Program-made: the position numbers and the translations under genes
The notes under the pieces: generated by a model
Told to the model about the DNA's origin: nothing
Database searches by the model: none
Seen by the model: only the letters and a program-made list of their open reading frames with translations
From: Escherichia coli
Lineage (GTDB): Bacteria; Pseudomonadota; Gammaproteobacteria; Enterobacterales; Enterobacteriaceae
Strand: one strand, 5' to 3'
Length of the DNA: 64,000 nucleotides
Assembly (NCBI RefSeq): GCF_016026235.1
Contig: NZ_CP065613.1
Shown here: positions 40,917-57,040 of the stretch, piece by piece
How the letters are laid out: each line of letters opens with the position of its first letter
Numbering within the stretch: the first letter of the stretch is position 1

Positions 40917-42119
40917 TTACCTGAACTGATAATGACCTTCGCCCAATCGGATAACCCTTCCCTCTTCTTCTGCGCGGTTCAGCCACACACTAATTTGTTC
41001 GATGGTTAAACCAGTACAAGACGCCAGCCTTTCAATACTTATCGATTCCTTTGCAAGGATCGCCAGTTCCGCCACAAAGAGTTGATAAAAATCGACAGGC
41101 GTATACGCGGGCATTACTGCGTAATTTGCGTCATCTTCATGCAGCGAAAACAGTTCTGGTTGAGCGTTACGGAGTGCTCTGTCATACATCAGCCCAGGAA
41201 CGTCTGGCAGTCTGATCGTCACATTCTCAGCCTGTTCAGCACTCCATGACGCCCCATTTTCTACTAATCGTGAATTGGCTGATTGCATATCCTGATTTGG
41301 TTTAACCTGCACAGGCAGCCACTGATGTTTTAATGCCTCCATCGCCCCGGTTATCGTTCCACCGGTCATTCCCGCACGTACAACCATTGCGCTTTCAGCA
41401 AGGCAATAAATATATTTATTTCGCGCCATCGCATTGCCGACGGTGAAACGTACCTCTGGGTAAAACGGCGAAATCAACACCAGGTTGCCTGCTATAAGCC
41501 CTTCACGCCATTTCACTAACGTACTCGTTTTTAACAAGCTATCAGCTAATACGCCAACGGCTGTTCCCCCGGTCTCCAGTGCCGACGCCATTGCACATTC
41601 ATCAATACCTCGCGCACCACCAGAGATAACGCAAATCCCCTGTTGGGCCAGTTTCGCGGCCAGTTGTTGGGTATAGCGCAAATCGTCAGTCGGAGCATCT
41701 CGCGAGCCAACAATCGCCATACCTTCCGCTTGCAGTAATGCTTTATTCCCGCAGCCAAATAAAACGGGAGGTGCATCCGTTCGCAATCGGTTTTTCAAGC
41801 GAACGGGATAATCAGCATCTCCGCGGGTTAAGATCCATAAACCGGCGCGTTGCCACTTATCTACCGCCAACGCCAGACTATGACCACGCGCCAGCAAGCC
41901 AAGAATACGCTCCTGAGAAATACGCGGATCGCTCCAGCCTGTAAGTTTCTCTTGCGGTTGCGGCACCAGAAGCTCGGCGGGACTGATACGTTGGTGCTTC
42001 AGCCATAATGCAAACTTCCCCCATTCACTATTACTAAGAGGTTTATACTCACTCGCCGCCGCGCGAGAAAAATCGCTGGTTAGCAGGAGAGTTGCTTGTG
42101 CATTGGCTGAAAGATTCAT
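40917..42119 (-). CDS. DprA/Smf-like (SLOG-fold) protein with C-terminal winged-helix-like tail; 2nd gene of the helicase island
   Basis: ORF 40917..42212; start placed at MNLSANAQ (42119), whose ATG overlaps the upstream stop (TGATG); DprA-type motifs GSRDAPTDDLRY and ISGGARGIDE. Confidence 0.7.
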   Translation of the reverse strand: MNLSANAQATLLLTSDFSRAAASEYKPLSNSEWGKFALWLKHQRISPAELLVPQPQEKLTGWSDPRISQERILGLLARGHSLALAVDKWQRAGLWILTRGDADYPVRLKNRLRTDAPPVLFGCGNKALLQAEGMAIVGSRDAPTDDLRYTQQLAAKLAQQGICVISGGARGIDECAMASALETGGTAVGVLADSLLKTSTLVKWREGLIAGNLVLISPFYPEVRFTVGNAMARNKYIYCLAESAMVVRAGMTGGTITGAMEALKHQWLPVQVKPNQDMQSANSRLVENGASWSAEQAENVTIRLPDVPGLMYDRALRNAQPELFSLHEDDANYAVMPAYTPVDFYQLFVAELAILAKESISIERLASCTGLTIEQISVWLNRAEEEGRVIRLGEGHYQFR

Positions 42120-44215
42120 CAATTTTTTACCGAGGTAGAAGCAAGGGCAAGAGGATAAACCGTCGGGCAACCTGCCTGGCGTAACAGTGCTGTCAGAACT
42201 GTCAGCGTCCATGCAGAATCCACGATATCGTCAACCAGCAACGCCGGACCAGGCATCAAAGGAGGGGTAATCACAAACGCCCCATCGAGATTTTGACACT
42301 GGTGGAAACGGTTTTGCTGCATTTTCTGCGGTGGATTGTCCACGACTTTTTCAATGGCATCAATAAAAGGTAAGCCAAGTTTCGCCGCCAGTCGCCGGGC
42401 AAAATCAGGAACCAGGTCGAGGTGCTTTAATGAAGGAACGCAGCATACCCAGGTTGGTTCAGGATGCGGATTCCAGCGTTGGCGAACCATTTCCGCACAT
42501 GCCTCCACCAGTTCATCACTGAATCGCCCCGTTTTTTTCTCCTGTGCTACCTGCTTTCCCCACCCGGAATCTCCCCAACGAGAAAGGATTCGCCCCGTAG
42601 ATCCTTGTAAACTCGCAGGCAAGTTCCCTTTAAATCCGTATTGCGTAAAAGCCCCAGCTGCCACCTGTTTATTGAGATTTAATGGCAGGTCAGCGTGTTT
42701 AATAAATAAGTTTGCCGCATGGAGTAAGCCGCTATCAATGTCGGGCGACAACAACGGATACTGAAGACAACTGCTACATTTACCACAATGTTCGGCACCT
42801 GGCTCATCGAGTGCGCGGCGCAGAAATTGCATTTTGCACTCCTTGGTCGTGATATAGCTTTCAACGTCTGCCAGCTCACTTTTTCTCTGATTCATCAAAT
42901 GGTTAATTCGTTCATGGTCAGGAGAAAAACTGACAATTGTTCTGCGCCATAATTTCTCGGTATACACCACAGGCGATGGATTTTCAGCTACCAATAATTT
43001 CAGTGCTTTTTCTATTTGCCCGTAACGGAGATTCGTCCGTTGTTCAATGCCTCGTAAGGTAAGACCGTCATTCACGCTAAGTACGTTGAGTATTTCATGA
43101 ATTTGCGCCTCCGCAGGAAAGGCGCTTTCACGGAAGAATTTATGAATAGCACGGTCTTCACTGCCGCAAAGCAGTATGCCAACAGCAGAATCGATACCGC
43201 GACCGGCACGCCCCACCTGTTGGTAGTAACCAACTATCGAACCTGGCATCTGGTAATGAATAACAAACCCCAAATCCGGTTTGTCAAAGCCCATTCCCAG
43301 CGCAGTTGTCGCAACCAGCACTTTAATTTTATTTGCCAGCAACGCCTGCTCCAGATATTCCCTGGCAGTATTAGAATCTTCCGCGCCTTCACAAGTCACG
43401 CCGCTGTAGTAAGCAAATGCACTGATACCATTTTTCCTTAACCACTCGGCGACAAGTTCGGCATCGCGAGTAGTCAGGGTATAAACAATTCCCGATTTGG
43501 AAAACTGAGGGATAACCGTTGCTAACCATGCCAGACGGGATGACTGTTCACCTAAGACTAAGGCATCAAGCGCCAAACTTTCGCGAGCCAGCGTTCCACG
43601 CTGAATCACAATGTCACCCAATTGCTGACGGATATCCTCAACGACACGGTTATTCGCTGTCGCGGTTGTACCCAGAACAGGGGTATTCGCAGGTAGTTGG
43701 CGCAAAATATCTAATATACGTCGGTAATCCGGGCGAAAATCGTGGCCCCAATCAGAGATGCAGTGCGCCTCGTCGACCACAAGCAAGCCAATACGATCGG
43801 CTATAGGATATAAAACCGTTTCGATAAAGTCCTGGTTTGCCAAACGTTCCGGGGAAACCAGCAAGCAATCGACCTCACCTTGCAGCAACTTATCGCTAAT
43901 GCGCTGCCATTCTTCTCTGTTTGTAGAATTCAACGTTTCAGCCGTAATACCTAACCGTTCAGCGGCGGCAACCTGGTTACGCATCAGGGCAAGCAAAGGA
44001 GAGATGATAATTGTCAGGCCAGCGCCGCGATCGCGGAAGATTTTACTGGCGATGAAGTACACAGCACTTTTCCCCCAGCCAGTGCGTTGGACAACCAGCA
44101 GTTTTCGCCGTTGGTTCACCACCGCGTCTATGGCTTCCCATTGCCCTTCCCTGAAAGTAGCGGTGGTATTTCCTAACATCCGCTGTAAAAGCAATTCAGC
44201 TGCGTGCTTTTCCAT
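42119..44215 (-). CDS. RecQ-family SF2 helicase fused to a C-terminal ComF-type phosphoribosyltransferase-like domain; 1st gene of the helicase island
   Basis: 698 aa; Walker A TGWGKS, DEAH box VVDEAHCISDWGHDFRPDY, motif VI QQVGRAGRG, Cys cluster CGKCSSC, C-terminal PRTase-like LLVDDIVDSAWTL; AGGAG Shine-Dalgarno 5 nt upstream of the ATG. Confidence 0.7.
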   Translation of the reverse strand: MEKHAAELLLQRMLGNTTATFREGQWEAIDAVVNQRRKLLVVQRTGWGKSAVYFIASKIFRDRGAGLTIIISPLLALMRNQVAAAERLGITAETLNSTNREEWQRISDKLLQGEVDCLLVSPERLANQDFIETVLYPIADRIGLLVVDEAHCISDWGHDFRPDYRRILDILRQLPANTPVLGTTATANNRVVEDIRQQLGDIVIQRGTLARESLALDALVLGEQSSRLAWLATVIPQFSKSGIVYTLTTRDAELVAEWLRKNGISAFAYYSGVTCEGAEDSNTAREYLEQALLANKIKVLVATTALGMGFDKPDLGFVIHYQMPGSIVGYYQQVGRAGRGIDSAVGILLCGSEDRAIHKFFRESAFPAEAQIHEILNVLSVNDGLTLRGIEQRTNLRYGQIEKALKLLVAENPSPVVYTEKLWRRTIVSFSPDHERINHLMNQRKSELADVESYITTKECKMQFLRRALDEPGAEHCGKCSSCLQYPLLSPDIDSGLLHAANLFIKHADLPLNLNKQVAAGAFTQYGFKGNLPASLQGSTGRILSRWGDSGWGKQVAQEKKTGRFSDELVEACAEMVRQRWNPHPEPTWVCCVPSLKHLDLVPDFARRLAAKLGLPFIDAIEKVVDNPPQKMQQNRFHQCQNLDGAFVITPPLMPGPALLVDDIVDSAWTLTVLTALLRQAGCPTVYPLALASTSVKN

Positions 44216-44343: not shown

Positions 44344-44354
44344 TGTCGCAGTAA

Positions 44355-45695
44355 TTAACTCAACAGCTGGAACGCAATCATCCCCACGATGGCACCAACA
44401 GTGCCGAGGATGGTTTCCATCATGGTCCAGGTTTTCAGCGTTTCGGCTTCGGTCGCGCCGGTAAATTTACCGAACAACCAGAAACCGGCGTCGTTAACGT
44501 GGCTGACAACAATCGAACCACCGGCGATACAAATCGACAGCGCCGCCATTTGCGCACCGGAATAGTTCAGTTGTTCAATGACCGGCATCACCAGCCCCAC
44601 CGCCGTTAAACAGGCAACGGTGGCAGACCCCTGAATGATGCGCACTGCAGCTGCCAGCACGAAGCAGGTGATGGCTATCGGCAGGCCCATGCCAGTTAAC
44701 GCTTCGCCCAGTGCCGGACCTACGCCAGAGTCAACCAGCACCTGTTTGAACACGCCGCCTGCACCAATCACCAGCAGAATGATCCCCGCCGGTTGCAGCG
44801 CGTGACCGCAAATCTCCATCACTTTGTCTTTTGGCATGCCCTGACGCATTGCCAGGCCATAAATCGCTACCAGACAAGCAACCAGAATCGCGGTAAACGG
44901 ATGACCAATAAACTCGAACCATTCGTAAGCGGTAGAGCCTTCTGGCACAAAACGCGCGGCAATGGTTTTCAGCCCCACCAGCACCAGCGGCAACAGGATC
45001 AGCGACAGGCTGAATCCGAAAGATGGCATTTTGCCTTCGCCGAGATGCGGTTCGCTGATGTCGTCAGGAATATGCAACTCCACGTAGCGGCTGATGAAAT
45101 TACCCCACAGCGGCCCGGCAATAATCATTCCCGGAATTGCCGCACACAGGCCAATCAGGATCATCCAGCCAAAATCGGCGTTCATCTGCGATGCGAGGAG
45201 CATTGGCGCTGGCCCAGGCACCAGGAACGCAGCCGCGGCCGCCACGCCTGCGAATAATGGGATTACCAGCTTCACCAGGTTCGTACCGGTGTGGCGCGCC
45301 ATTGAGAAAGCAACGCTAATCAGCAGAACAATCGCCACTTCAAAGAACAGCGGTAGCGCACAGACCAGCCCCGCAAGGCCGATGGCATAATGCGCGCGGC
45401 TGTGACCGAAGGATTTGAGCATTTTGACGGCAATCTGATCGACTGCGCCGGTTTCATGTAAGATCTTGCCAAACATAGCTCCCAGGGCGACAACCACCGC
45501 CAGGAAGCCGAGGGTGCCTCCCATCCCTTTTTCCATCGTCGCTGCGATTTTATCGAGCGGCATACCGGAAAAAAGGCCAGCCCCCATGGACACCACCATC
45601 AAAGCCAGGAAAGCGTGCATACGCGCCTTCATGACTAAAAACAGCAGCAGTAAAACAGACCCTACTGCTGTTAAAACAAGCGTTAATGTAGTCAC
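44355..45695 (-). CDS. gntU: Low-affinity gluconate transporter GntU
   Basis: 446-aa GntP-family permease; paralog of the gntT product. Confidence 0.95.
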   Translation of the reverse strand: MTTLTLVLTAVGSVLLLLFLVMKARMHAFLALMVVSMGAGLFSGMPLDKIAATMEKGMGGTLGFLAVVVALGAMFGKILHETGAVDQIAVKMLKSFGHSRAHYAIGLAGLVCALPLFFEVAIVLLISVAFSMARHTGTNLVKLVIPLFAGVAAAAAFLVPGPAPMLLASQMNADFGWMILIGLCAAIPGMIIAGPLWGNFISRYVELHIPDDISEPHLGEGKMPSFGFSLSLILLPLVLVGLKTIAARFVPEGSTAYEWFEFIGHPFTAILVACLVAIYGLAMRQGMPKDKVMEICGHALQPAGIILLVIGAGGVFKQVLVDSGVGPALGEALTGMGLPIAITCFVLAAAVRIIQGSATVACLTAVGLVMPVIEQLNYSGAQMAALSICIAGGSIVVSHVNDAGFWLFGKFTGATEAETLKTWTMMETILGTVGAIVGMIAFQLLS

Positions 45696-45698
45696 TAC

Positions 45699-46226
45699 TT
45701 ATTTGCCTTTTTTAATAACCTCAATGGTGCTTGCCACAACACCTTCCAGCGGTTGATCGATATCCACCACCAGTACATCGGTTTCGTCCGCACCCGGCTC
45801 CTGCAGCGTTTCAAACTGCGTCACCAACATTTGGGTTTTAAAGAAATGGCCTTTGCGCGCTTTCAGGCGGCTTTCAATCACATCAAAATCGCCTTTCAGG
45901 TAGATGAAAGAGAGATTCGGATTACCTTCACGCAGCAAGTCGCGATAGTGTTTTTTCAATGCAGAACAGACGATCAGTGACACTTTATTAGTGCGCTGCA
46001 TAGCAAACGCGGCGTCGTTCAGCGCCTGCAACCACGGTTTGCGATCGTCGTCATTCAGCGGTTCGCCAGACGCCATTTTTTCGATATTGCGCCGTGGATG
46101 GAGGAAATCGCCATCAAGAAACGCGGCATGAAGTTGATGCGCCACTTCACTGGCGACCGCAGATTTGCCGCTGCCCGATACGCCCATCAAGACGTAAACG
46201 TGGTGATCATGGTTAGTCGTGCTCAA
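45699..46226 (-). CDS. gntK: Gluconokinase (thermoresistant)
   Basis: ORF 45699..46247; likely TTG start giving 175 aa beginning STTNHDHH; P-loop GVSGSGKS. Confidence 0.9.
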   Translation of the reverse strand: MSTTNHDHHVYVLMGVSGSGKSAVASEVAHQLHAAFLDGDFLHPRRNIEKMASGEPLNDDDRKPWLQALNDAAFAMQRTNKVSLIVCSALKKHYRDLLREGNPNLSFIYLKGDFDVIESRLKARKGHFFKTQMLVTQFETLQEPGADETDVLVVDIDQPLEGVVASTIEVIKKGK

Positions 46227-46364
46227 AGTGGTGCCCCCACAATACAAGAATTAAAAATGTTACGGGTAACTGTTATCGGTAACATTGTCCAGCCGGACAA
46301 TATCAGAAGCAATATCCATCCGTGCCTTAAGTGTATAAGTGTGAGCTACTTCAAATTTGTGGGC

Positions 46365-47360
46365 TTAAATAGATCCGCCCGGTGACAAGGTGAAACCTAA
46401 ATCTAACATTTTCGGTGTCACAGATTCGCCACGAATACGCGCCAGAAGGCGTTCAGCGCCAATACTGCCCATCCGCTCACGCGGCGTCAGCACGCTCGCA
46501 AGTCGTGGCTCCATCACCTGACCAATGTCATGACCGTGGAAACCGGCAATCGCCATATCGTCAGGAACTTTTAACCCCAGACGCTGACATTCAAACGCCG
46601 CGCCGACCGCCAGATCATCATTAGTACAGAACACGCCATCCAGCTGCGGATATTCCCGCCGCGCCTGGCGAATCAGTTCAATACCGGAAGAGTAAGAAGA
46701 AGATTGCTCAACCATCACGCTATACGGCACCAGGCCTGCATCCCGCATCGCCTGTTCGTATCCCTTCTGTTTGATGATAGTACGTTCGTCGAGACGTGCG
46801 CCGAGATAGGCAATATGGCGATGCCCACGAGCAATAATGGCGGCGGTCATCTGGCGTGCCGCTTCAAAGTTATCAAAACCGACGGCAATATCGAGGCATG
46901 GCGACTTGCTGTCCATCAGTTCCACCACGGGAATCCCCGCCACTTCAATCATCTTTAAGGTGCGCGGCGTGTGGGTACGTTCGGTGAGGATAAGTCCGTC
47001 GATATTCCATGAGAGCATTGATTCGAGACGTTCTTGCTCCATTTCCGGTTTATAACCGTAGTGGGCCAGCATGGTCTGATAACCGTGCGCGTCGGTGACG
47101 CTTTCGATTCCGCGTAATACTTCCGCGAAAACCTGGTTGGTGAGAGAAGGTAACAGGACGCCAATCGCCCGGCTGGTGGCGTTAGAGAGGATATCGGGCG
47201 CACGATTGGGAATATAGCCCAGTTCATCAAGAGCCGCGGCAATCTTGCCGCGTAGAGCGACGGAAACCTGCTCCGGGTTGCGTAAAAAACGGCTGACCGT
47301 CATTTTGGTCACGCCTACACGGTCAGCCACATCCTGAAGTACGGGTCTTTTCTTTTTCAT
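46365..47360 (-). CDS. gntR: Gluconate repressor GntR (LacI family)
   Basis: 331 aa; N-terminal HTH (LQDVADRVGVTKMTVSRFL). Confidence 0.95.
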   Translation of the reverse strand: MKKKRPVLQDVADRVGVTKMTVSRFLRNPEQVSVALRGKIAAALDELGYIPNRAPDILSNATSRAIGVLLPSLTNQVFAEVLRGIESVTDAHGYQTMLAHYGYKPEMEQERLESMLSWNIDGLILTERTHTPRTLKMIEVAGIPVVELMDSKSPCLDIAVGFDNFEAARQMTAAIIARGHRHIAYLGARLDERTIIKQKGYEQAMRDAGLVPYSVMVEQSSSYSSGIELIRQARREYPQLDGVFCTNDDLAVGAAFECQRLGLKVPDDMAIAGFHGHDIGQVMEPRLASVLTPRERMGSIGAERLLARIRGESVTPKMLDLGFTLSPGGSI

Positions 47361-47583
47361 CGTCCTGAAGGTACAAAAGAGATAGATTCTCTTAGTTTAA
47401 CACGGACGCATCAGAACCTTCCCGGGGAAAACAGTGCTTGTTTACAATTATTAGATATACACTAAATCAATTGCATCGCATTGTGCTAACGACGCGGCAA
47501 AACCCCGGAAGCGTGCATCAGCACGCGACCGGAGCGAGCGAGGAAGCCTGCAAAAAGGCAGGCTTCAAAGATGCCGTTGAGTT

Positions 47584-48279
47584 TTAAACCGGCGGCAGAT
47601 CGAACAGTAACACTTCGCTGTCGCTATCCGCATGGATGGAGATTGCCTGCTCATCCCAGATTGCCAGACCATCGCTGGTCGAGGCTTTCACGCCGTTAAT
47701 GGTGACATTGCCTTTCACCACCTGGATCCAGACGCGGCGTTCAGCGGCAATCTGATGCACCGACTGCTCATCTTTCAGCAACGCCCAGCGGTACAGTTCC
47801 ATATCCTGATGCACTTTCAATGAACCATCTCGCGCATCCGGCGAGAGCACCAGCTGTTTGCCCTGTACGGCATCGAAGCGACGCTGTTCATAACGCGGCG
47901 TAATACCGTTTTCTTCAGGCATGATCCAGATCTGATACAGATGCAGACGCTCGGTGCTGCTTGGGTTGTACTCTGAGTGACGAATACCCGTACCCGCACT
48001 CATAATCTGGAACTCACCCGCCGGAACCTGCTCTTTATTGCCCATGCTGTCCTGATGCTCAACAGTACCTTCCAGCACGTAGGTCAAAATTTCCATATCT
48101 TTATGCGGGTGAGTGCCGAAGCCCTGCCCTGCTTCAATCACGTCGTCGTTAATCACGCGCAGCGCGGAGAAGCCCATAAAGTTCGGATCGTAATAGTTGG
48201 CAAAAGAGAAAGTATGCCAGGAGTCCAGCCAGCCATGATTTGCATGACCACGTTCATTTGCTTTGCGTAAGTAGATCAT
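47584..48279 (-). CDS. yhhW: Pirin-like quercetin 2,3-dioxygenase YhhW
   Basis: 231-aa cupin/pirin family protein (HPHKDMEILTYVLEG); synteny. Confidence 0.9.
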   Translation of the reverse strand: MIYLRKANERGHANHGWLDSWHTFSFANYYDPNFMGFSALRVINDDVIEAGQGFGTHPHKDMEILTYVLEGTVEHQDSMGNKEQVPAGEFQIMSAGTGIRHSEYNPSSTERLHLYQIWIMPEENGITPRYEQRRFDAVQGKQLVLSPDARDGSLKVHQDMELYRWALLKDEQSVHQIAAERRVWIQVVKGNVTINGVKASTSDGLAIWDEQAISIHADSDSEVLLFDLPPV

Positions 48280-48401
48280 TTGTATTCGCCCCCTGAATGA
48301 TTTCGATGGGCTTAGTGTGGACCCGATCTGCCTGGGATGATAGAGGGTGAAAATTGACCCCTCTGTTCAAAAAAATTGAACTATTCGAGGGGCCATCAAA
48401 C

Positions 48402-49439
48402 TTACTTAGCGAGAGTTACTGTGGAGGGAGAGGCTTGCTCAAATCCGCGTTCAAGGATTTCCAGATTGGTAAGAACTTCAGATTCCTTGACGTAATTTGG
48501 CGCACCGTTGGTGAGGGTTTGATACAACGCATCATAAACGCGCCCGTAATCGCCCATCTCTGGCTTCATCTCTTCTCTGACCGTTACGCCCTCGTCATTG
48601 ACATACTCCAGCACACCGACAGAATCATCCGCTGCGAATCCCGGTTCGCCCGGCATAATATTAGCCTTCAGGCTGGTTTCCTGCTGGTCGATACCGTATT
48701 TAATAAACGAACCTTTCTTACCGTGAACGATAAATTTCGGATAATCGATTTTCACCAGATGGCTGGTTTTGACGATGGCTTTTAGATCGCCATAAAACAG
48801 TTGCGCTTCGAAAGTATCGTCAGGATTGGCTTTATTGCGCAGGCTGCGGATGTCATAAGCGACGTGATCCGGGCGACCGAACAGAGAAATAATCTGGTCC
48901 ATCGTATGCACACCAAGGCCATAGAACGCGCCATCCTGCGGCAACCCAGGTTTGGTTTCTGCCACCGGGCGGTAATAGTCAAAATGGCTTTCCACTTCAA
49001 CAATCTCTCCCAGCTTGCCGCTTTCAATCGCTTTTTTCGCCGTCAGGAAGCAGGAATCAAAGCGACGATTCTGATATGGCGTGACGGTCAGCCCTTTGCT
49101 TTTCGCCAGTGCAAACAGCTCTTTCGCCTGCGCAAGTGTCGGAGTGAACGGTTTTTCGACCAGCACATTTTTCCCGGCTTCCAGCGCGCGCTTCGCGTAC
49201 TCGAAGTGGCTGTCCGCATGGGTGCAGACAACAACCAGCTTAACATCGGGATCGTTTAGCACTTCGTTGAGATCGCTGGTGAAATGGATATGGGAATAAA
49301 TGGGAGCCTGTTCTTCCGGCTTCGCATGGCGGCGAAAAATATGCGCGACATGCCAGCTATCCTTGCGGTTAAGTACATACGGCAGATGGTAACGGGTGGT
49401 GCTTTTGCCGAAGCCAATAAAGGCGCAGTTGATGACCAT
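48402..49439 (-). CDS. yhhX: Gfo/Idh/MocA-family NAD(P)-dependent oxidoreductase YhhX
   Basis: 345 aa; N-terminal Rossmann fold. Confidence 0.9.
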   Translation of the reverse strand: MVINCAFIGFGKSTTRYHLPYVLNRKDSWHVAHIFRRHAKPEEQAPIYSHIHFTSDLNEVLNDPDVKLVVVCTHADSHFEYAKRALEAGKNVLVEKPFTPTLAQAKELFALAKSKGLTVTPYQNRRFDSCFLTAKKAIESGKLGEIVEVESHFDYYRPVAETKPGLPQDGAFYGLGVHTMDQIISLFGRPDHVAYDIRSLRNKANPDDTFEAQLFYGDLKAIVKTSHLVKIDYPKFIVHGKKGSFIKYGIDQQETSLKANIMPGEPGFAADDSVGVLEYVNDEGVTVREEMKPEMGDYGRVYDALYQTLTNGAPNYVKESEVLTNLEILERGFEQASPSTVTLAK

Positions 49440-49555
49440 GATTTCGTCCTTTTTAAGGTGGTTATTTACACCTTAGCGCAAAGCGGACGTGGTTCCTACT
49501 GGAGTGCGCATAACGAACACAAGCACTCCCGTGGATAAATTGAGAACGAAAGATC

Positions 49556-49649
49556 AAAAAAAAAGCCAGCACCCGGCTGGCTAAGTAATACTGGAAGCAA
49601 TGTGAGCAATGTCGTGCTTTCAGGTTCTCCGCGAGGGTCTTCCTGATCA
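49556..49649 (-). ncRNA. ryhB: RyhB iron-responsive small RNA
   Basis: Minus strand reads GTGATCAGGAAGACCCTCGCGGAGAACCTGAAAGCACGACATTGCTCACATTGCTTCCAGTATTACTTAGCCAGCCGGGTGCTGGCTTTTTTTTT, matching RyhB as I recall it apart from one base near the 5' end; terminator hairpin plus U-tract. Confidence 0.9.
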
Positions 49650-49672
49650 CGAGACAATAATAATCATTCTCA
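49650..49672 (-). promoter_or_regulatory. Fur box overlapping the ryhB promoter
   Basis: Minus strand GAGAATGATTATTATTGTCT immediately upstream of the RyhB 5' end. Confidence 0.6.
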
Positions 49673-49771
49673 TTCGCACTTGTCCAACACTTTTTGCAAA
49701 AAAATGCATTTGACTCGCATTTGAAAGTCAATGATGTTGAAAGGGACATTTACCCCAAAGAGGACAAAGGA

Positions 49772-50260
49772 ATGAGTGAGATAGTAATACGCCACGCAGA
49801 AACACGGGATTACGAGGCCATCAGGCAGATTCACGCCCAGCCGGAGGTGTATTGCAACACACTACAGGTGCCTCATCCTTCCGATCATATGTGGCAGGAG
49901 CGACTCGCCGATCGTCCCGGCATCAAGCAACTCGTCGCCTGTATTGATGGAGACGTCGTGGGCCATCTCACCATTGACGTGCAACAGCGCCCACGCCGCA
50001 GTCATGTTGCCGATTTTGGTATCTGTGTCGACTCTCGTTGGAAGAACCGCGGCGTCGCCAGCGCCCTGATGCGAGAGATGATTGAAATGTGCGACAACTG
50101 GTTGCGGGTAGATCGCATTGAACTAACCGTGTTTGTCGATAACGCCCCGGCAATTAAGGTCTATAAAAAATACGGCTTTGAAATTGAAGGGACTGGTAAG
50201 AAGTACGCATTGCGTAATGGTGAATATGTCGATGCATATTATATGGCGCGGGTGAAGTAA
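49772..50260 (+). CDS. yhhY: GNAT-family N-acetyltransferase YhhY
   Basis: ORF 49694..50260; start at MSEIVIRHAETRDYEAIRQIH giving 162 aa. Confidence 0.9.
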   Translation: MSEIVIRHAETRDYEAIRQIHAQPEVYCNTLQVPHPSDHMWQERLADRPGIKQLVACIDGDVVGHLTIDVQQRPRRSHVADFGICVDSRWKNRGVASALMREMIEMCDNWLRVDRIELTVFVDNAPAIKVYKKYGFEIEGTGKKYALRNGEYVDAYYMARVK

Positions 50261-50496
50261 GATAGTGCCCTTTTTCTGAGATGGAAAAAGGGTGTCATTC
50301 AAAATCGACATACCTTCCTTTAAGGTATTTATTTGCCCAATACATATATTGAGATTTAACTCATAATTACTTCCTAAAGTGTAATATTTTATTTTTTAAT
50401 ATATACGCCTACAATTTCCTGGAGTAAATAAATAACAATTAACAAGCATAATATTGCCATTGATAAAATAGCATGCCATAAAAGGACTTTTCAGGG

Positions 50497-51675
50497 ATGA
50501 GTAATATTGTTTACCTGACAGTAACGGGAGAACAACAAGGAAGCATCTCCGCAGGTTGTGGGACTTCTGAGTCTACAGGTAATCGTTGGCAGAGCGGGCA
50601 TGAGGATGAAATATTTACATTCTCACTCTTAAATAATATTAATAATACGGGGCTTGGTTCACAGTTCCATGGTATAACATTTTGTAAATTAATTGATAAA
50701 AGCACTCCATTATTTATTAATTCCATTAACAATAATGAACAATTATTTATGGGATTTGACTTCTATCGAATAAATAGATTTGGTAGATGGGAAAAGTATT
50801 ATTATATACAACTAAGAGGCGCTTTTTTATCGGCTATTCATCACCAGATCATTGAAAACCAACTGGATACAGAAACAATAACTATTAGTTATGAATTTAT
50901 CCTCTGTCAACATCTTATCGCAAATACCGAGTTCAGCTATTTGGCACTCCCTGAAAATTATAACCGTTTGTTTTTACCAAATTCAAAAAACCAAACAAAT
51001 AATCGTTTCAAAACGTTAAACAGCAAAGCTATTGGCAGGCTACTTGCTGCTGGTGGCGTATACAATGGGAACATTGAAGGATTCAGAGATACTGCGGAAA
51101 AACTGGGTGGAGATGCAATAAAAGGCTATGATCAAATACTAAATGAAAAAACAGCGGGCATAGCGATAGCAACAGCATCTATTCTTTTAACAAAGCGTTC
51201 TAATGTTGATACATATACAGAAATAAATAGTTACTTAGGCAAACTTAGAGGTCAACAAAAACTTCTTGATGGTATAGACATAATAGAAATAATATACATT
51301 AAGAGACCTTCAAAAGACTTAGCTAACTTACGAAAGAAGTTTAATAAAACTGTAAGAAAAAATTTTCTTATCAAACTTGCAAAAACCTCCGAAGCATCTG
51401 GAAGATTCAACGCCGAAGACCTTTTAAGAATGAGAAAGGGCAATGTTCCTCTAAATTATAATGTTCACCATAAACTATCTCTAGATGATGGTGGTACTAA
51501 TGATTTCGAAAATTTAGTATTAATCGAAAACGAACCATATCATAAAGTTTTTACTAACATGCAATCACGAATAGCTAAGGGAATATTAGTAGGTGAAAGC
51601 AAAATCACTCCCTGGGCCATTCCATCTGGCTCAATTTATCCTCCCATGAAAAATATTATGGACCACACAAAATGA
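50497..51675 (+). CDS. yhhZ: Hcp-domain / HNH-type nuclease polymorphic toxin YhhZ
   Basis: 392 aa; N-terminal Hcp-like domain, C-terminal HNH-like segment (NYNVHHKLSLDDGGTNDFENLVLIENEPYHK); AT-rich gene. Confidence 0.8.
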   Translation: MSNIVYLTVTGEQQGSISAGCGTSESTGNRWQSGHEDEIFTFSLLNNINNTGLGSQFHGITFCKLIDKSTPLFINSINNNEQLFMGFDFYRINRFGRWEKYYYIQLRGAFLSAIHHQIIENQLDTETITISYEFILCQHLIANTEFSYLALPENYNRLFLPNSKNQTNNRFKTLNSKAIGRLLAAGGVYNGNIEGFRDTAEKLGGDAIKGYDQILNEKTAGIAIATASILLTKRSNVDTYTEINSYLGKLRGQQKLLDGIDIIEIIYIKRPSKDLANLRKKFNKTVRKNFLIKLAKTSEASGRFNAEDLLRMRKGNVPLNYNVHHKLSLDDGGTNDFENLVLIENEPYHKVFTNMQSRIAKGILVGESKITPWAIPSGSIYPPMKNIMDHTK

Positions 51676-52414: not shown

Positions 52415-52615
52415 AAATAAGAAAATCCCGTTCGACGTTCTGAAAAAGAAATCACAAAATATTAGCAGATACTTATTTCGTGACTATATCTTATCCGATG
52501 AACTTTTTTCAAAACCAGCATTTAATAATATCTTTGACGAAGATGAACGCGCCTTTGCTCAATGTATCACACAGGAATAATAATATAACACTCAACAATA
52601 ATATTTATTATAATT

Positions 52616-52900
52616 ATGATTACTTATCACGACGCATTCGCGAAAGCGAACCATTACCTTGATGATGCAGATCTCCCGGTCGTCATTACTCTACATGGAC
52701 GCTTTAGCCAGGGCTGGTATTTCTGTTTCGAAGCACGAGAATTTCTCGAAACTGGAGATGAGGCCGCGCGCTTAGCTGGTAACGCACCTTTTATTATTGA
52801 TAAAGACAGTGGTGAAATTCATTCTCTGGGAACGGCAAAGCCGCTGGAAGAATATCTACAGGATTACGAAATAAAAAAGACTACCTTCGGCTTGCCCTGA
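52616..52900 (+). CDS. yrhB: YrhB (stable heat-induced chaperone-like protein)
   Basis: 94 aa, MITYHDAFAKANHYLDDADLPVVITLHGRF...; synteny. Confidence 0.85.
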   Translation: MITYHDAFAKANHYLDDADLPVVITLHGRFSQGWYFCFEAREFLETGDEAARLAGNAPFIIDKDSGEIHSLGTAKPLEEYLQDYEIKKTTFGLP

Positions 52901-52937
52901 CAAAACAGCCCTCTTCCCACGAAGAGGGCCACTAACC

Positions 52938-54683
52938 TTAGTACCCCGCCGTTAAATCATCCACCGAGCGCGGGTCGGATGCACCATACAGCTCACCGTC
53001 CGGCCCAACCATAATGCTTTGTGTACTGCCCATCGCCTCTTTCAGCGCCACTTTCTGACCTTTTGCTTCCAGCAGCTTGAGCGTATCCGGGCTAAACCCT
53101 TTTTCGACACGCAGCTCGTCCGGCAACCACTGATGGTGGAAACGCGGCGCATTGGTCGCTTCGGCGACGTTCATGCCATAATCGATGCTATTCACCACCA
53201 TTTGAAGCACGGTGGTAATGATCCGGCTCCCGCCAGGGCTACCGGTAACCAGCCAGGTTTTACCGTCTTTCACCACAATGGTTGGTGACATCGACGACAG
53301 CGGGCGTTTATTCGGCCCGACCGCGTTGGCATCACCGCCCACCAGCCCGTAAACGTTCGGTACGCCTGGTTTGGCGGAGAAATCATCCATCTGGTTATTA
53401 AGCAGAATACCGCTCTCGCCCGCGACAATACCCGTACCGAAGGTGGTGTTCAGCGTATAGGTCACCGCCACGGCGTTACCGTCTTTATCCACCACTGAGT
53501 AATGGGTAGTTTGATTACTCTCATAAGGCGCAAGCTTGCCAGGGCGAATCTCGCTGGACGGTTTCGCTTTATTGATATCGATTTGCTCGGCAATAGATTT
53601 GGCATAGGCTTTATTGGTCAGCGCCTGCCACGGGACTTTCACAAAATCCGGGTCGCCAAGATATTCCGAGCGGTCGGCGTAGGCGTATTTCTCAGCCTCT
53701 GCCATGATTTGCATCGCATCGGCACTGCCAAAGCCGTATTTCTTCATATCGAAGTTTTCCAGAATATTGAGGATCTGCACGATATGAATCCCACCGGAAG
53801 ATGGCGGTGGCATAGAGTAAACCTGATACCCGCGATAATCGCCGCTTATCGGTGTGCGTTCGACCGCTTTATACGCCGCTAAATCTTCTTTAGTGATCAG
53901 GCCACCGTTTTTCTGCATCTCCTGGGCAATCTGTTCCGCTATCGTGCCTTTGTAGAATTCGGCCGGGCCGTTTTCGGCAATCATCTCCAGGCTCTTTGCC
54001 AGGTTCGCCTGCACCAGCTTGTCGCCCTTTTTCAGCGGCTCGCCCTCTTTCCAGAAGATAGCCTTGCTGTTTTCGTGATTCGGCAGCACTTCGCTCCCGT
54101 AGGTTTTGAGATCGTCAGCCAGCGCGTCGTTAACGATAAAACCATCGCGTGCCAGTTTAAACGCTGGCTGCACCACTTTGTTCAACGGCATTGTGCCGTA
54201 TTTATCCAACGCCAGCGAGAAACCAGCGACCGTACCGGGCGTGCCGGAAGCCAGATGCGAAGTGAGTGATTTTTTGCTGTCCGGGTTGCCCTGGTCATCA
54301 AGGAACAAATCGCGGGTCGCTTTGGCGGGTGCCATTTCGCGGAAATCGATAGCGGTGGTATTGCCATTTTTCGAGCGGATCAGCATAAAACCACCACCGC
54401 CCAGATTCCCTGCCTGCGGATGCGTTACCGCCAGCGCGTAGCCCACAGCCACGGCGGCATCAACGGCATTCCCGCCCTCCTTGAGGATATCCACCCCCAC
54501 CTGAGTGGCAGTAGCATCTACAGATGCCACCATCCCCTGTTTCGCGCGTACCGGATGAAAGACATCTTCCTCCACGCCGTAAGAAACAGGAGACGGCGCA
54601 GGTGGCGCGGCTACCGTACTAAAACAACTTCCTGTGAGCAGAGCAGCAATGGCCACCCGGCGTAAAAACGTCGGTTTTATCAT
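52938..54683 (-). CDS. ggt: Gamma-glutamyltranspeptidase
   Basis: ORF 52938..54710; start at MIKPTFLRR (signal peptide); Ntn-hydrolase with catalytic Thr in QTTHYSVVD. Confidence 0.95.
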   Translation of the reverse strand: MIKPTFLRRVAIAALLTGSCFSTVAAPPAPSPVSYGVEEDVFHPVRAKQGMVASVDATATQVGVDILKEGGNAVDAAVAVGYALAVTHPQAGNLGGGGFMLIRSKNGNTTAIDFREMAPAKATRDLFLDDQGNPDSKKSLTSHLASGTPGTVAGFSLALDKYGTMPLNKVVQPAFKLARDGFIVNDALADDLKTYGSEVLPNHENSKAIFWKEGEPLKKGDKLVQANLAKSLEMIAENGPAEFYKGTIAEQIAQEMQKNGGLITKEDLAAYKAVERTPISGDYRGYQVYSMPPPSSGGIHIVQILNILENFDMKKYGFGSADAMQIMAEAEKYAYADRSEYLGDPDFVKVPWQALTNKAYAKSIAEQIDINKAKPSSEIRPGKLAPYESNQTTHYSVVDKDGNAVAVTYTLNTTFGTGIVAGESGILLNNQMDDFSAKPGVPNVYGLVGGDANAVGPNKRPLSSMSPTIVVKDGKTWLVTGSPGGSRIITTVLQMVVNSIDYGMNVAEATNAPRFHHQWLPDELRVEKGFSPDTLKLLEAKGQKVALKEAMGSTQSIMVGPDGELYGASDPRSVDDLTAGY

Positions 54684-55973: not shown

Positions 55974-57040
55974 ACTCGTTGTCCTGTTTCACCATCAAAA
56001 AGATGCAGCTGATTTTCCGCCAGATGCAGCCACAGCGTGCTGCCTGCCGTCGGGCGCTCCTGATGCGCCAGTCGCACCACCAGCTTCTGTTCGCCCCAGC
56101 GTCCGTGCGCCAGGTTATCTGCGCCGAGGATCTCTAGCGTGTCCATCACCAGCGGTACGCCGCCTTCTGCCTGCGAGCTTAGCGCAATATGTTCCGGGCG
56201 AATGCCGAGAGTCATTTTACGCCCGGCATACTGACGGTAGCCACCGTTTAGCGGTAGCACGATACCGCCGTCCAGTTCGAAATGCGTGCCTTCGTTATTC
56301 ACGCGGCCTGTCAGCAGATTCATCGCCGGGCTGCCAATAAAACTCGCCACAAACAGGCTGGCGGGCTTTTCGTAGACTTCTACTGGTGTGCCAATCTGTT
56401 CGGCAACGCCGCCGTTCATCACCATTACTCGCTGGGCGAGGGTCATCGCCTCAACCTGATCGTGAGTAACGTAGAGTGATGTCGTTTTCAGGCGACGGTG
56501 CAGCTGTTGCAGTTCAAGACGCATCTGTACGCGCAGCTTGGCATCGAGGTTAGAGAGTGGCTCATCAAACAGGAACACCGCCGGATCGCGCACAATCGCG
56601 CGGCCCATCGCCACACGCTGGCGCTGACCGCCGGAAAGCTCGCGTGGGCGACGTTTGAGCAGGCCGTCCAGCTCCAGAATGCGCGCCGCTTCTTTAACGC
56701 GCTCGGCAATTTGCTGCTTGCCCATGCCGCGAATTTTCAGCCCCCACGCCATGTTTTCTTCGACGCTCATATGCGGATAAAGCGCGTAGTTCTGGAACAC
56801 CATCGCAATCCCGCGATCTTTCGGCTCCATTTCGGTCACCCGCTGGTCGTTGATCCAGATATCGCCTTCCGTCACCCGCTCCAGCCCGGCAACCATGCGC
56901 AGCAGCGTCGATTTCCCGCAGCCAGACGGCCCGACCATCACGATAAATTCGCCATCCGCCACATCAAGGGTCAGCGGTTTAATGACCTGGGTTTTACCAT
57001 CCCAGCTTTTGGTTACTGCCTGTAATTTCAGTCCTGCCAT
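55970..57040 (-). CDS. ugpC: sn-glycerol-3-phosphate ABC transporter ATP-binding protein
   Basis: ORF 55970..57079; start at MAGLKLQAV giving 356 aa; Walker [10 protein letters not shown], signature LSGGQRQR. Confidence 0.95.

What the first reader, a model, noticed from the sequence alone, without database searches (positions are those of the whole stretch)
49556..49672. RyhB sRNA with Fur box, one base different near the 5' end from the sequence as recalled
Read from the sequence: the minus-strand transcript begins GTGATCAGG..., whereas I recall GCGATCAGG... for K-12; the seed and terminator regions look unchanged. Probably a neutral polymorphism.
Basis: partly seen in the sequence, partly recalled or inferred. 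Interest (0 to 1): 0.2.

Follow-up and report, generated by a model that had tools for sequence, protein, structure and literature searches.

The report
RyhB iron sRNA with rare SNP
This is the ordinary, well-known iron-starvation small RNA RyhB of E. coli with its Fur-repressed promoter, carrying a real but rare single-base change (C to U at the second nucleotide) that is most likely harmless.

Summary
Window 49650→49556 (minus strand) is ryhB: Rfam RF00057 scores 83.1 bits against a threshold of 55. It lies between yhhX and yhhY, as in K-12, with a σ70 promoter, two overlapping Fur boxes and an intrinsic terminator.

Over 278 aligned bases it differs from K-12 MG1655 at one base, RNA nucleotide +2 (window 49649), which is U here and C in K-12.

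- **Rare:** an allele-specific search of 5,426 complete E. coli genomes finds U in 3 and C in 5,359.
- **Derived:** the closest genome (FDAARGOS_943, 99.9% over 24 kb) has C.
- **Recurrent:** the U allele sits on three different flanking haplotypes.
- **Seen elsewhere:** among 120 species-representative RyhB loci, about 114 start GC and 5 start GU.

The base lies 3 bp outside the Fur boxes, outside the seed and terminator, and in the short unpaired 5' leader before stem-loop 1. That leader is unpaired in 95 of 102 ortholog folds. C and U are both non-preferred pyrimidines for RppH at nucleotide 2.

The best reading is a neutral or nearly neutral polymorphism. One caveat: full-length in-silico folding predicts that U2 lets the 5' end pair with the AU-rich linker. 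This is untested and I give it little weight.

The suggested Rfam check could not have settled the question, because the model omits the first 29 nt.

The parts
49556..49650 (-). ryhB small RNA gene. +1 = G at 49650. The classical 90-nt RNA ends at 49561; the RefSeq MG1655 annotation (95 nt) corresponds to 49556.
   Evidence: Rfam RF00057 at 83.1 bits over 49621..49557. One mismatch to the K-12 ncRNA ryhB b4451. Located between yhhX (48402..49439, -) and yhhY (49772..50260, +).
49649..49649 (-). The variant: RNA nucleotide 2 is U (T on the minus strand, A on the plus strand), whereas K-12 has C.
   Evidence: T allele in 3 and C allele in 5,359 of 5,426 complete E. coli genomes. The nearest genome, FDAARGOS_943, has C.
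49620..49646 (-). Stem-loop 1 (nt 5-31): outer stem UCAGG:CCUGA with an inner CC:GG helix. Nucleotides 1-4 (49650-49647) form an unpaired 5' leader.
   Evidence: The 33-nt 5' domain has the same MFE structure and energy (-6.6 kcal/mol) for both alleles. An SL1-like hairpin closing at nt 4-6 is predicted in 91 of 101 unique ortholog 5' domains, with 27 different stem-arm pairs. SL1 is described in PMC4231740.
49591..49619 (-). 29-nt invariant core (nt 32-60, AAGCACGACAUUGCUCACAUUGCUUCCAG), which contains the target-pairing seed.
   Evidence: Identical to K-12. The exact 29-mer was found in at least 120 species-representative genomes of Enterobacterales and relatives.
49556..49582 (-). Rho-independent terminator: a 7-bp GC-rich hairpin (49582..49564) followed by a U run (49563..49556).
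   Evidence: Terminator scan. Paired in the Rfam alignment. Identical to K-12.
49657..49686 (-). σ70 promoter: -35 TGGACA (49686..49681), 18-bp spacer, -10 TATTAT (49662..49657). The start site lies 7 bp downstream.
   Evidence: Promoter scan, 10 of 12 consensus matches. Identical to K-12.
49652..49672 (.). Two overlapping Fur boxes (7-1-7 motif TGATAATNATTATCA) covering the -10 element: 49658-49672 (2 mismatches) and 49652-49666 (3 mismatches), that is, -2 to -22.
   Evidence: 12 matches in the window against 2.4 expected by chance, and none of 100 shuffles reached 12. The variant at +2 is 3 bp outside the proximal motif.

Best explanation
The locus is the canonical Fur-repressed, Hfq-dependent small RNA RyhB of E. 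coli. When iron is scarce, Fur leaves the boxes that overlap the -10 element. The roughly 90-nt RNA is then made, and its conserved core pairs with mRNAs of non-essential iron proteins such as sodB and sdhCDAB. This mechanism is established knowledge and was not tested here. The single difference from K-12, C to U at RNA nucleotide 2, is a real, rare, recently derived transition. It sits in the short unpaired 5' leader ahead of stem-loop 1 and most likely has no meaningful effect on regulation, folding or target pairing. It is therefore a neutral or nearly neutral polymorphism. What is shown: identity, rarity, derived state, multiple backgrounds, and position relative to the motifs. What is inferred: neutrality.
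For: - **Identity:** RF00057 scores 83.1 bits against a gathering score of 55. Synteny is yhhX-ryhB-yhhY. Promoter, Fur boxes and terminator are present. There is a single mismatch to K-12 in 278 aligned bases.
- **Rarity:** the T allele is in 3 and the C allele in 5,359 of 5,426 genomes.
- **Derived state:** FDAARGOS_943 is 99.9% identical over 24 kb, differs at 6 sites in the 5.3 kb downstream, and has C.
- **Location:** the variant is 3 bp outside the proximal Fur motif, 30 nt upstream of the invariant core, and outside the SL1 stem.
- **Folding:** the isolated 5' domain has the same MFE structure and energy for both alleles. Nucleotide 2 is unpaired in the MFE of 95 of 102 unique ortholog 5' domains, with a median pairing probability of 0.003.
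- **Tolerated elsewhere:** five of about 119 species-representative RyhB loci naturally start GU, namely two Budvicia species, Candidatus Pantoea persica and two further loci (L089, L096).
- **Mutational scan:** PMC4231740 reports that deleterious single mutations in RyhB concentrate in the stems of SL1 and SL3 and in the pairing regions.
- **5'-end processing:** RppH needs 2-3 unpaired 5' nucleotides and prefers a purine at nucleotide 2. C and U are both pyrimidines (PMC7144940).
Against: - C at +2 is strongly conserved: about 114 of 119 species and about 99% of E. coli genomes. That is more conserved than positions -5..-1 or +3/+4, which hints at some constraint, perhaps on transcription initiation or 5'-end biology.
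- Full-length in-silico ensembles differ between the alleles. In K-12 the 5' end pairs locally (2:19, P = 0.92). With U2 it pairs with A65 in the AU-rich linker (P = 0.78), and the mean unpaired probability of the linker falls from 0.74 to 0.40.
- These folds have non-significant z-scores (-0.4 to -0.7). They give the probing-supported SL1 only 7-12% probability for either allele, so they are weak evidence.
- Recurrence on three haplotypes could in principle reflect selection.
Confidence: 0.85

Rival explanations
1. The U2 allele is a functional, possibly adaptive variant that tunes RyhB output. It could change initiation (second initiating nucleotide CTP to UTP) or Fur occupancy at the promoter edge. 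It could change 5'-end accessibility to RppH and RNase E. It could also create a 5'-end to AU-linker pairing that competes with Hfq binding.
For: +2 C is highly conserved across genera and within E. coli. The T allele is found on three unrelated flanking haplotypes. The in-silico ensemble shifts from 2:19 (P = 0.92) to 2:65 (P = 0.78) and linker accessibility falls from 0.74 to 0.40. RppH reads the base of nucleotide 2 (PMC7144940).
Against: The allele has not spread: only 3 of 5,426 genomes carry it, and the largest group of related carriers is two genomes. The full-length folds are not better than shuffles and contradict the experimentally supported SL1. The local SL1 would form co-transcriptionally before nt 60-66 exist (inference). 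C to U keeps a pyrimidine for RppH. The variant is outside both Fur 7-1-7 motifs. Orthologs starting GU exist.
Confidence: 0.08
2. The T is a sequencing or assembly error in the genome that the window comes from, and the strain really carries C.
For: It is a single base. The only close relative in the complete-genome set (FDAARGOS_943) has C. The window's own genome is not among the 5,426 complete genomes, so it may be a draft.
Against: The same base change is present in three independently sequenced complete genomes from two unrelated backgrounds. The site is not in a homopolymer. The window differs from FDAARGOS_943 at about a dozen other scattered sites in 24 kb, as expected for real divergence.
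Confidence: 0.05
3. The recurrence reflects a local mutational hotspot rather than selection. The non-template-strand C at +2 lies in the open-complex bubble of a strongly induced promoter and is prone to deamination, giving repeated neutral C-to-T changes. This explains the recurrence and is compatible with the neutral reading.
For: The change is a C-to-T transition on the sense (non-template) strand at +2. It has three backgrounds despite very low frequency. The surrounding ~970 bp is otherwise identical in the six genomes compared.
Against: No rate comparison was made. With more than 5,000 genomes, some homoplasy is expected at any site. Small-patch recombination cannot be excluded, because the surrounding ~970 bp carries no other markers.
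Confidence: 0.2

Closest known systems
RyhB of Escherichia coli K-12 (b4451; Rfam RF00057)
   Same: Same locus (yhhX-ryhB-yhhY), same promoter, Fur boxes, SL1, core/seed and terminator. 277 of 278 aligned bases are identical.
   Different: RNA nucleotide 2 is U instead of C (window 49649). This allele is seen in only 3 of 5,426 complete E. coli genomes.
RyhB orthologs that naturally start GU (Budvicia diplopodorum L046, Budvicia aquatica L055, Candidatus Pantoea persica L054, and loci L089 and L096)
   Same: Exact 29-nt core, a Fur box overlapping the -10 element, a 3-4 nt unpaired leader followed by an SL1-like hairpin, and U at nucleotide 2.
   Different: The SL1 sequences are different, and their flanking genes were not examined. 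They show that U2 is compatible with a conserved RyhB, not that it is equivalent in E. coli.
Functional analogues: Salmonella RyhB-2/IsrE paralog and Pseudomonas PrrF1/2 (from established knowledge, not examined here)
   Same: Fur-repressed, Hfq-dependent sRNAs that spare iron by repressing mRNAs of iron-containing proteins.
   Different: Different loci, and for PrrF an unrelated sequence. The window holds only the single canonical ryhB copy.

Membership tests
RyhB (Rfam RF00057) | Covariance-model score at or above the curated gathering score | tested here: met
   83.1 bits against 55, E = 3.6e-14, full model 1-67 matched at 49621..49557. The model does not include the first 29 nt.
RyhB (Rfam RF00057) | Conserved single-stranded core/seed sequence (AAGCACGACAUUGCUCACAUUGCUUCCAG) | tested here: met
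   Identical to K-12. The same 29-mer was found in at least 120 species representatives.
RyhB (Rfam RF00057) | Fur box overlapping a σ70 promoter (iron-responsive repression) | tested here: met
   Promoter TGGACA-18-TATTAT. Fur 7-1-7 motifs at 49658-49672 and 49652-49666 cover the -10 element. Actual Fur binding was not tested.
RyhB (Rfam RF00057) | Rho-independent terminator with a 3' U tract (Hfq-binding module) | tested here: met
   A 7-bp stem with 5 GC pairs followed by a U run (49582..49556).
RyhB (Rfam RF00057) | Conserved genomic position in Escherichia, between yhhX and yhhY | tested here: met
   ORFs and the K-12 annotation. Same arrangement in four other E. coli genomes.
RyhB (Rfam RF00057) | 5' stem-loop SL1 preceded by a short unpaired leader | tested here: met
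   The predicted MFE is the same for both alleles. An SL1-like hairpin is predicted in 91 of 101 ortholog 5' domains. This is prediction only; no probing was done.
RyhB (Rfam RF00057) | Induced on iron limitation; Hfq-dependent repression of sodB, sdhCDAB and other targets | not testable with these tools
   Requires expression and reporter experiments.

The most novel reading that the evidence does not exclude
C2U is a recurrently arising regulatory allele of RyhB. It changes how much active sRNA a cell makes under iron stress, either by altering initiation or 5'-end-dependent decay, or by letting the 5' end pair with the AU-rich Hfq-binding linker. It would then be a natural fine-tuning variant of the iron-sparing response rather than a neutral change.
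Probability: 0.06. Interest if true: 0.3.

Novelty: already known. Interest (0 to 1): 0.08.

Why it matters
It matters little. RyhB and its Fur control are textbook knowledge, and the variant is a rare single-base polymorphism outside every element known to be needed for function. Three by-products have modest value. First, RyhB is 100% identical to the K-12 RNA in about 98.8% of complete E. coli genomes (at most 5,360 of 5,424). Second, G1C2 and a 3-4 nt unpaired leader are conserved across Enterobacterales, although no known function requires C2. Third, RF00057 cannot be used to judge variation in the first 29 nt. If the U2 allele did alter RyhB output, it would be a small natural example of 5'-leader tuning of an sRNA.

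Tried and rejected
it confirms RyhB, but the model starts at nt 30, so it says nothing about position 2.
- **RNAalifold on a mixed 89-sequence MAFFT alignment of 5' domains:** it gave no consensus structure, because the Pantoea, Photorhabdus and Budvicia sequences misalign. I replaced it with per-sequence folding.
- **A conserved pairing between the 5' GCGA and the UCGC in the SL1 loop (C2:G19):** rejected. In most orthologs the aligned loop reads UACGG or UGCGG, so the register is not conserved, and nucleotide 2 is unpaired in 95 of 102 folds.
- **Full-length MFE and ensemble differences between the alleles:** recorded but not trusted. The z-scores are -0.4 to -0.7, and the experimentally supported SL1 receives only 7-12% probability.
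- **Per-position mutational data for nucleotide 2 in PMC4231740:** the main text and the held supplement give no value for that position. Their numbering appears offset by one from the genomic +1, and their sRNA was expressed from Ptet.
- **Technical problem:** loci fetched in one parallel batch (L002-L004) were at first missing from the Python sandbox. They became available later.
- **Not done:** I did not catalogue the other ~64 E. coli genomes with variant RyhB.

Full report
**What is there.** The minus strand of window 49400-49850 reads ...TTGGACAAGTGCGAATGAGAATGATTATTATTGTCTC|GTGATCAGGAAGACCCTCGCGGAGAACCTGAAAGCACGACATTGCTCACATTGCTTCCAGTATTACTTAGCCAGCCGGGTGCTGGCTTTTTTTTTGA.

- A scan of the whole window against Rfam at gathering thresholds gives one hit: RF00057 RyhB at 49621..49557 (-), 83.1 bits against a gathering score of 55, E = 3.6e-14.
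- The flanking ORFs are yhhW, yhhX (48402..49439, -), yhhY (49772..50260, +) and yhhZ. This is the same order as around ryhB (b4451) in K-12 MG1655.
- A consensus scan finds one σ70 promoter on the minus strand: TGGACA at 49686-49681, an 18-bp spacer, and TATTAT at 49662-49657. This places +1 at G 49650. The scan also finds the terminator hairpin at 49582..49564 followed by a U run.
- The Fur 7-1-7 motif TGATAATNATTATCA matches at 49658-49672 (2 mismatches) and 49652-49666 (3 mismatches), covering the -10 element. The window holds 12 such matches against 2.4 expected by chance.
- The finding's coordinates, 49556-49672, therefore run exactly from the annotated 3' end of the RNA to the outer edge of the Fur site.

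**The variant.** Alignment with MG1655 gives a single difference in 278 aligned bases. RNA nucleotide 2 (window 49649) is T here and C in K-12.

**How common it is.** I used two 34-mers that differ only at this base, placed so that every 28-base megablast seed must contain it.

- The T version matches 3 of 5,426 complete E. coli genomes: CFSAN064036, TUM9868 and O111:H8 strain 8E.
- The C version matches 5,359 genomes.
- The full 90-nt K-12 RyhB is at least 99% identical in 5,360 of the 5,424 genomes that have the gene. End mismatches may be trimmed by BLAST, so this count includes the three T-allele genomes. Only 64 genomes show any internal variant. RyhB is thus almost invariant in the species, and this allele is one of the rare exceptions.

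**Ancestry.**

- The window's genome is not in the complete-genome set. Its nearest relative there is FDAARGOS_943, at 99.9% over 24 kb; the next best is 98.8%.
- Listing every difference between the two shows about a dozen scattered SNPs and indels. One of them is 49649, where FDAARGOS_943 has C. The T is therefore derived and recent in the window's lineage.
- Over the 5.3 kb downstream of ryhB, the window differs from FDAARGOS_943 at 6 sites, from CFSAN064036 and TUM9868 at 76-77 sites, and from O111:H8 8E at 83 sites.
- CFSAN064036 and TUM9868 differ from each other at 1 site, and from 8E at 64-65 sites (alignment).
- The T allele therefore sits on three unrelated backgrounds. Either the same C-to-T transition happened at least three times, or a very small patch was transferred. 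The ~970 bp around ryhB carry no other differences among the six genomes compared, so these two possibilities cannot be told apart locally.

**Conservation across species.**

- I anchored on the Fur box and corrected an obvious offset in the Photorhabdus loci and in L111. The RNA then starts GC in about 114 loci and GU in 5. The five are Budvicia diplopodorum, Budvicia aquatica, Candidatus Pantoea persica, and loci L089 and L096.
- C2 is thus strongly but not absolutely conserved. It is more conserved than positions -5..-1 or +3/+4. U2 occurs in otherwise intact orthologs. For example, Candidatus Pantoea persica starts GUGUUCUCGG where Pantoea septica starts GCGUUCUCGG.

**Structure.**

- Folding the 5' domain alone gives the same MFE structure and energy (-6.6 kcal/mol) for both alleles. 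Nucleotides 1-4 are unpaired, followed by SL1 (U5-G9 paired with C27-A31, plus an inner C14C15:G21G22 helix).
- The K-12 allele has a competing GCGA:UCGC hairpin. Its probability is about 0.35 in the isolated domain and falls to about 0.03 with U2.
- Across 102 unique ortholog 5' domains, nucleotide 2 is unpaired in the MFE of 95, with a median pairing probability of 0.003.
- In 91 of 101 domains the MFE is a single hairpin domain that closes at nt 4-6 and at the last 3 nt before the core. There are 27 different pairs of stem arms.
- The conserved architecture is therefore a 3-4 nt unpaired leader followed by SL1.
- This agrees with the three-stem-loop structure used by Peterman et al. (PMC4231740). 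Their mutational scan found deleterious single mutations concentrated in the stems of SL1 and SL3 and in the target-pairing regions. Compensatory pairs confirmed SL1 in vivo.
- Their text gives no value for the leader positions, and their numbering appears shifted by one from the genomic +1.

**A caveat.** Full-length partition-function folding gives a different picture.

| Quantity | K-12 (C2) | Window (U2) |
|---|---|---|
| Dominant partner of nucleotide 2 | G19, P = 0.92 | A65, P = 0.78 |
| Mean unpaired probability of the AU-rich linker (nt 57-67) | 0.74 | 0.40 |
| Ensemble free energy (kcal/mol) | -25.8 | -25.3 |

- With U2, the model pairs the 5' end with the AU-rich linker between SL2 and the terminator: G1:C66, U2:A65, G3:U64, A4:U63, U5:A62 and C6:G60.
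- I give this little weight. The folds are no better than shuffled sequences (z = -0.4 and -0.7).
- The same model gives the experimentally supported SL1 only 7-12% probability for either allele.
- By inference, the local SL1 forms during transcription before nt 60-66 exist, and Hfq occupies the linker in vivo.
- It remains the one concrete, testable way in which the variant might not be neutral.

**Other possible effects, all inferred.**

- The variant is 3 bp beyond the proximal Fur motif, so a direct effect on Fur recognition is unlikely. A footprint was not available to confirm this.
- At +2 the variant changes the second initiating nucleotide from CTP to UTP. Any effect on initiation is unknown.
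[quoted passage not shown] C and U are both pyrimidines and the leader stays unpaired, so 5'-end-dependent decay should be similar.

**Verdict.** This is textbook RyhB with its Fur-controlled promoter, carrying a genuine, rare, derived and apparently recurrent C2U polymorphism. The variant is most probably neutral or nearly so (confidence 0.85). The rivals are a functional tuning allele (about 0.08) and a base-calling error in the source assembly (about 0.05). A mutational hotspot at the promoter bubble could explain the recurrence and is compatible with neutrality. Nothing here is new in kind, and the interest is low.

Noticed in passing
window 40917-44215 (-): A RecQ-family helicase ORF (42119..44215, 698 aa) and a DprA-like ORF (40917..42212, 431 aa) lie between gntU and yhgN. 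The pair is also present in FDAARGOS_943, where the helicase is annotated as frameshifted. The window has one extra C at 42695, and here the ORF is intact. The pair is absent from CFSAN064036, TUM9868 and O111:H8 8E, where gntU is directly followed by yhgN.
   Followed up: partly
window 52599-52622 (+): Three overlapping Fur-box-like 7-1-7 matches (3 mismatches each) lie in an AT-rich stretch at the start of yrhB. They may simply reflect AT-richness.
   Followed up: no
window 47750-51550 versus 44350-49650: Diversity changes sharply across ryhB. The 1.9 kb on the yhhY/yhhZ side differs by only 1-5 SNPs between unrelated E. coli lineages, whereas the 5.3 kb on the yhhX-gntU side differs by 64-87 SNPs. 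In the six-genome alignment the boundary lies about 100 bp inside yhhX. This suggests a recombination boundary or a sweep.
   Followed up: partly
window 52925-52941 and 56320-56450: Relative to the window, the nearest genome FDAARGOS_943 has an IS5 insertion between ggt and yrhB. It also has a ~123-bp internal duplication in ugpC: window 56320-56450 aligns twice, and ugpC is annotated as 1,194 nt instead of 1,071 nt.
   Followed up: no
ryhB across the E. coli genome collection: Two of 5,426 complete E. coli genomes have no RyhB match, and some have up to 3 copies of the region. One genome (strain 23AR0151, H108) carries a RyhB that is 90.9% identical with about 9 extra bases. ryhB is not annotated in most PGAP RefSeq records: 'none' is listed under every match.
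   Followed up: no
RyhB +1/+2 in loci L006-L125: G1C2 and a 3-4 nt unpaired leader are conserved in RyhB across Enterobacterales, more so than the -5..-1 promoter bases or nt 3-4. No known RyhB function is assigned to these nucleotides.
   Followed up: partly
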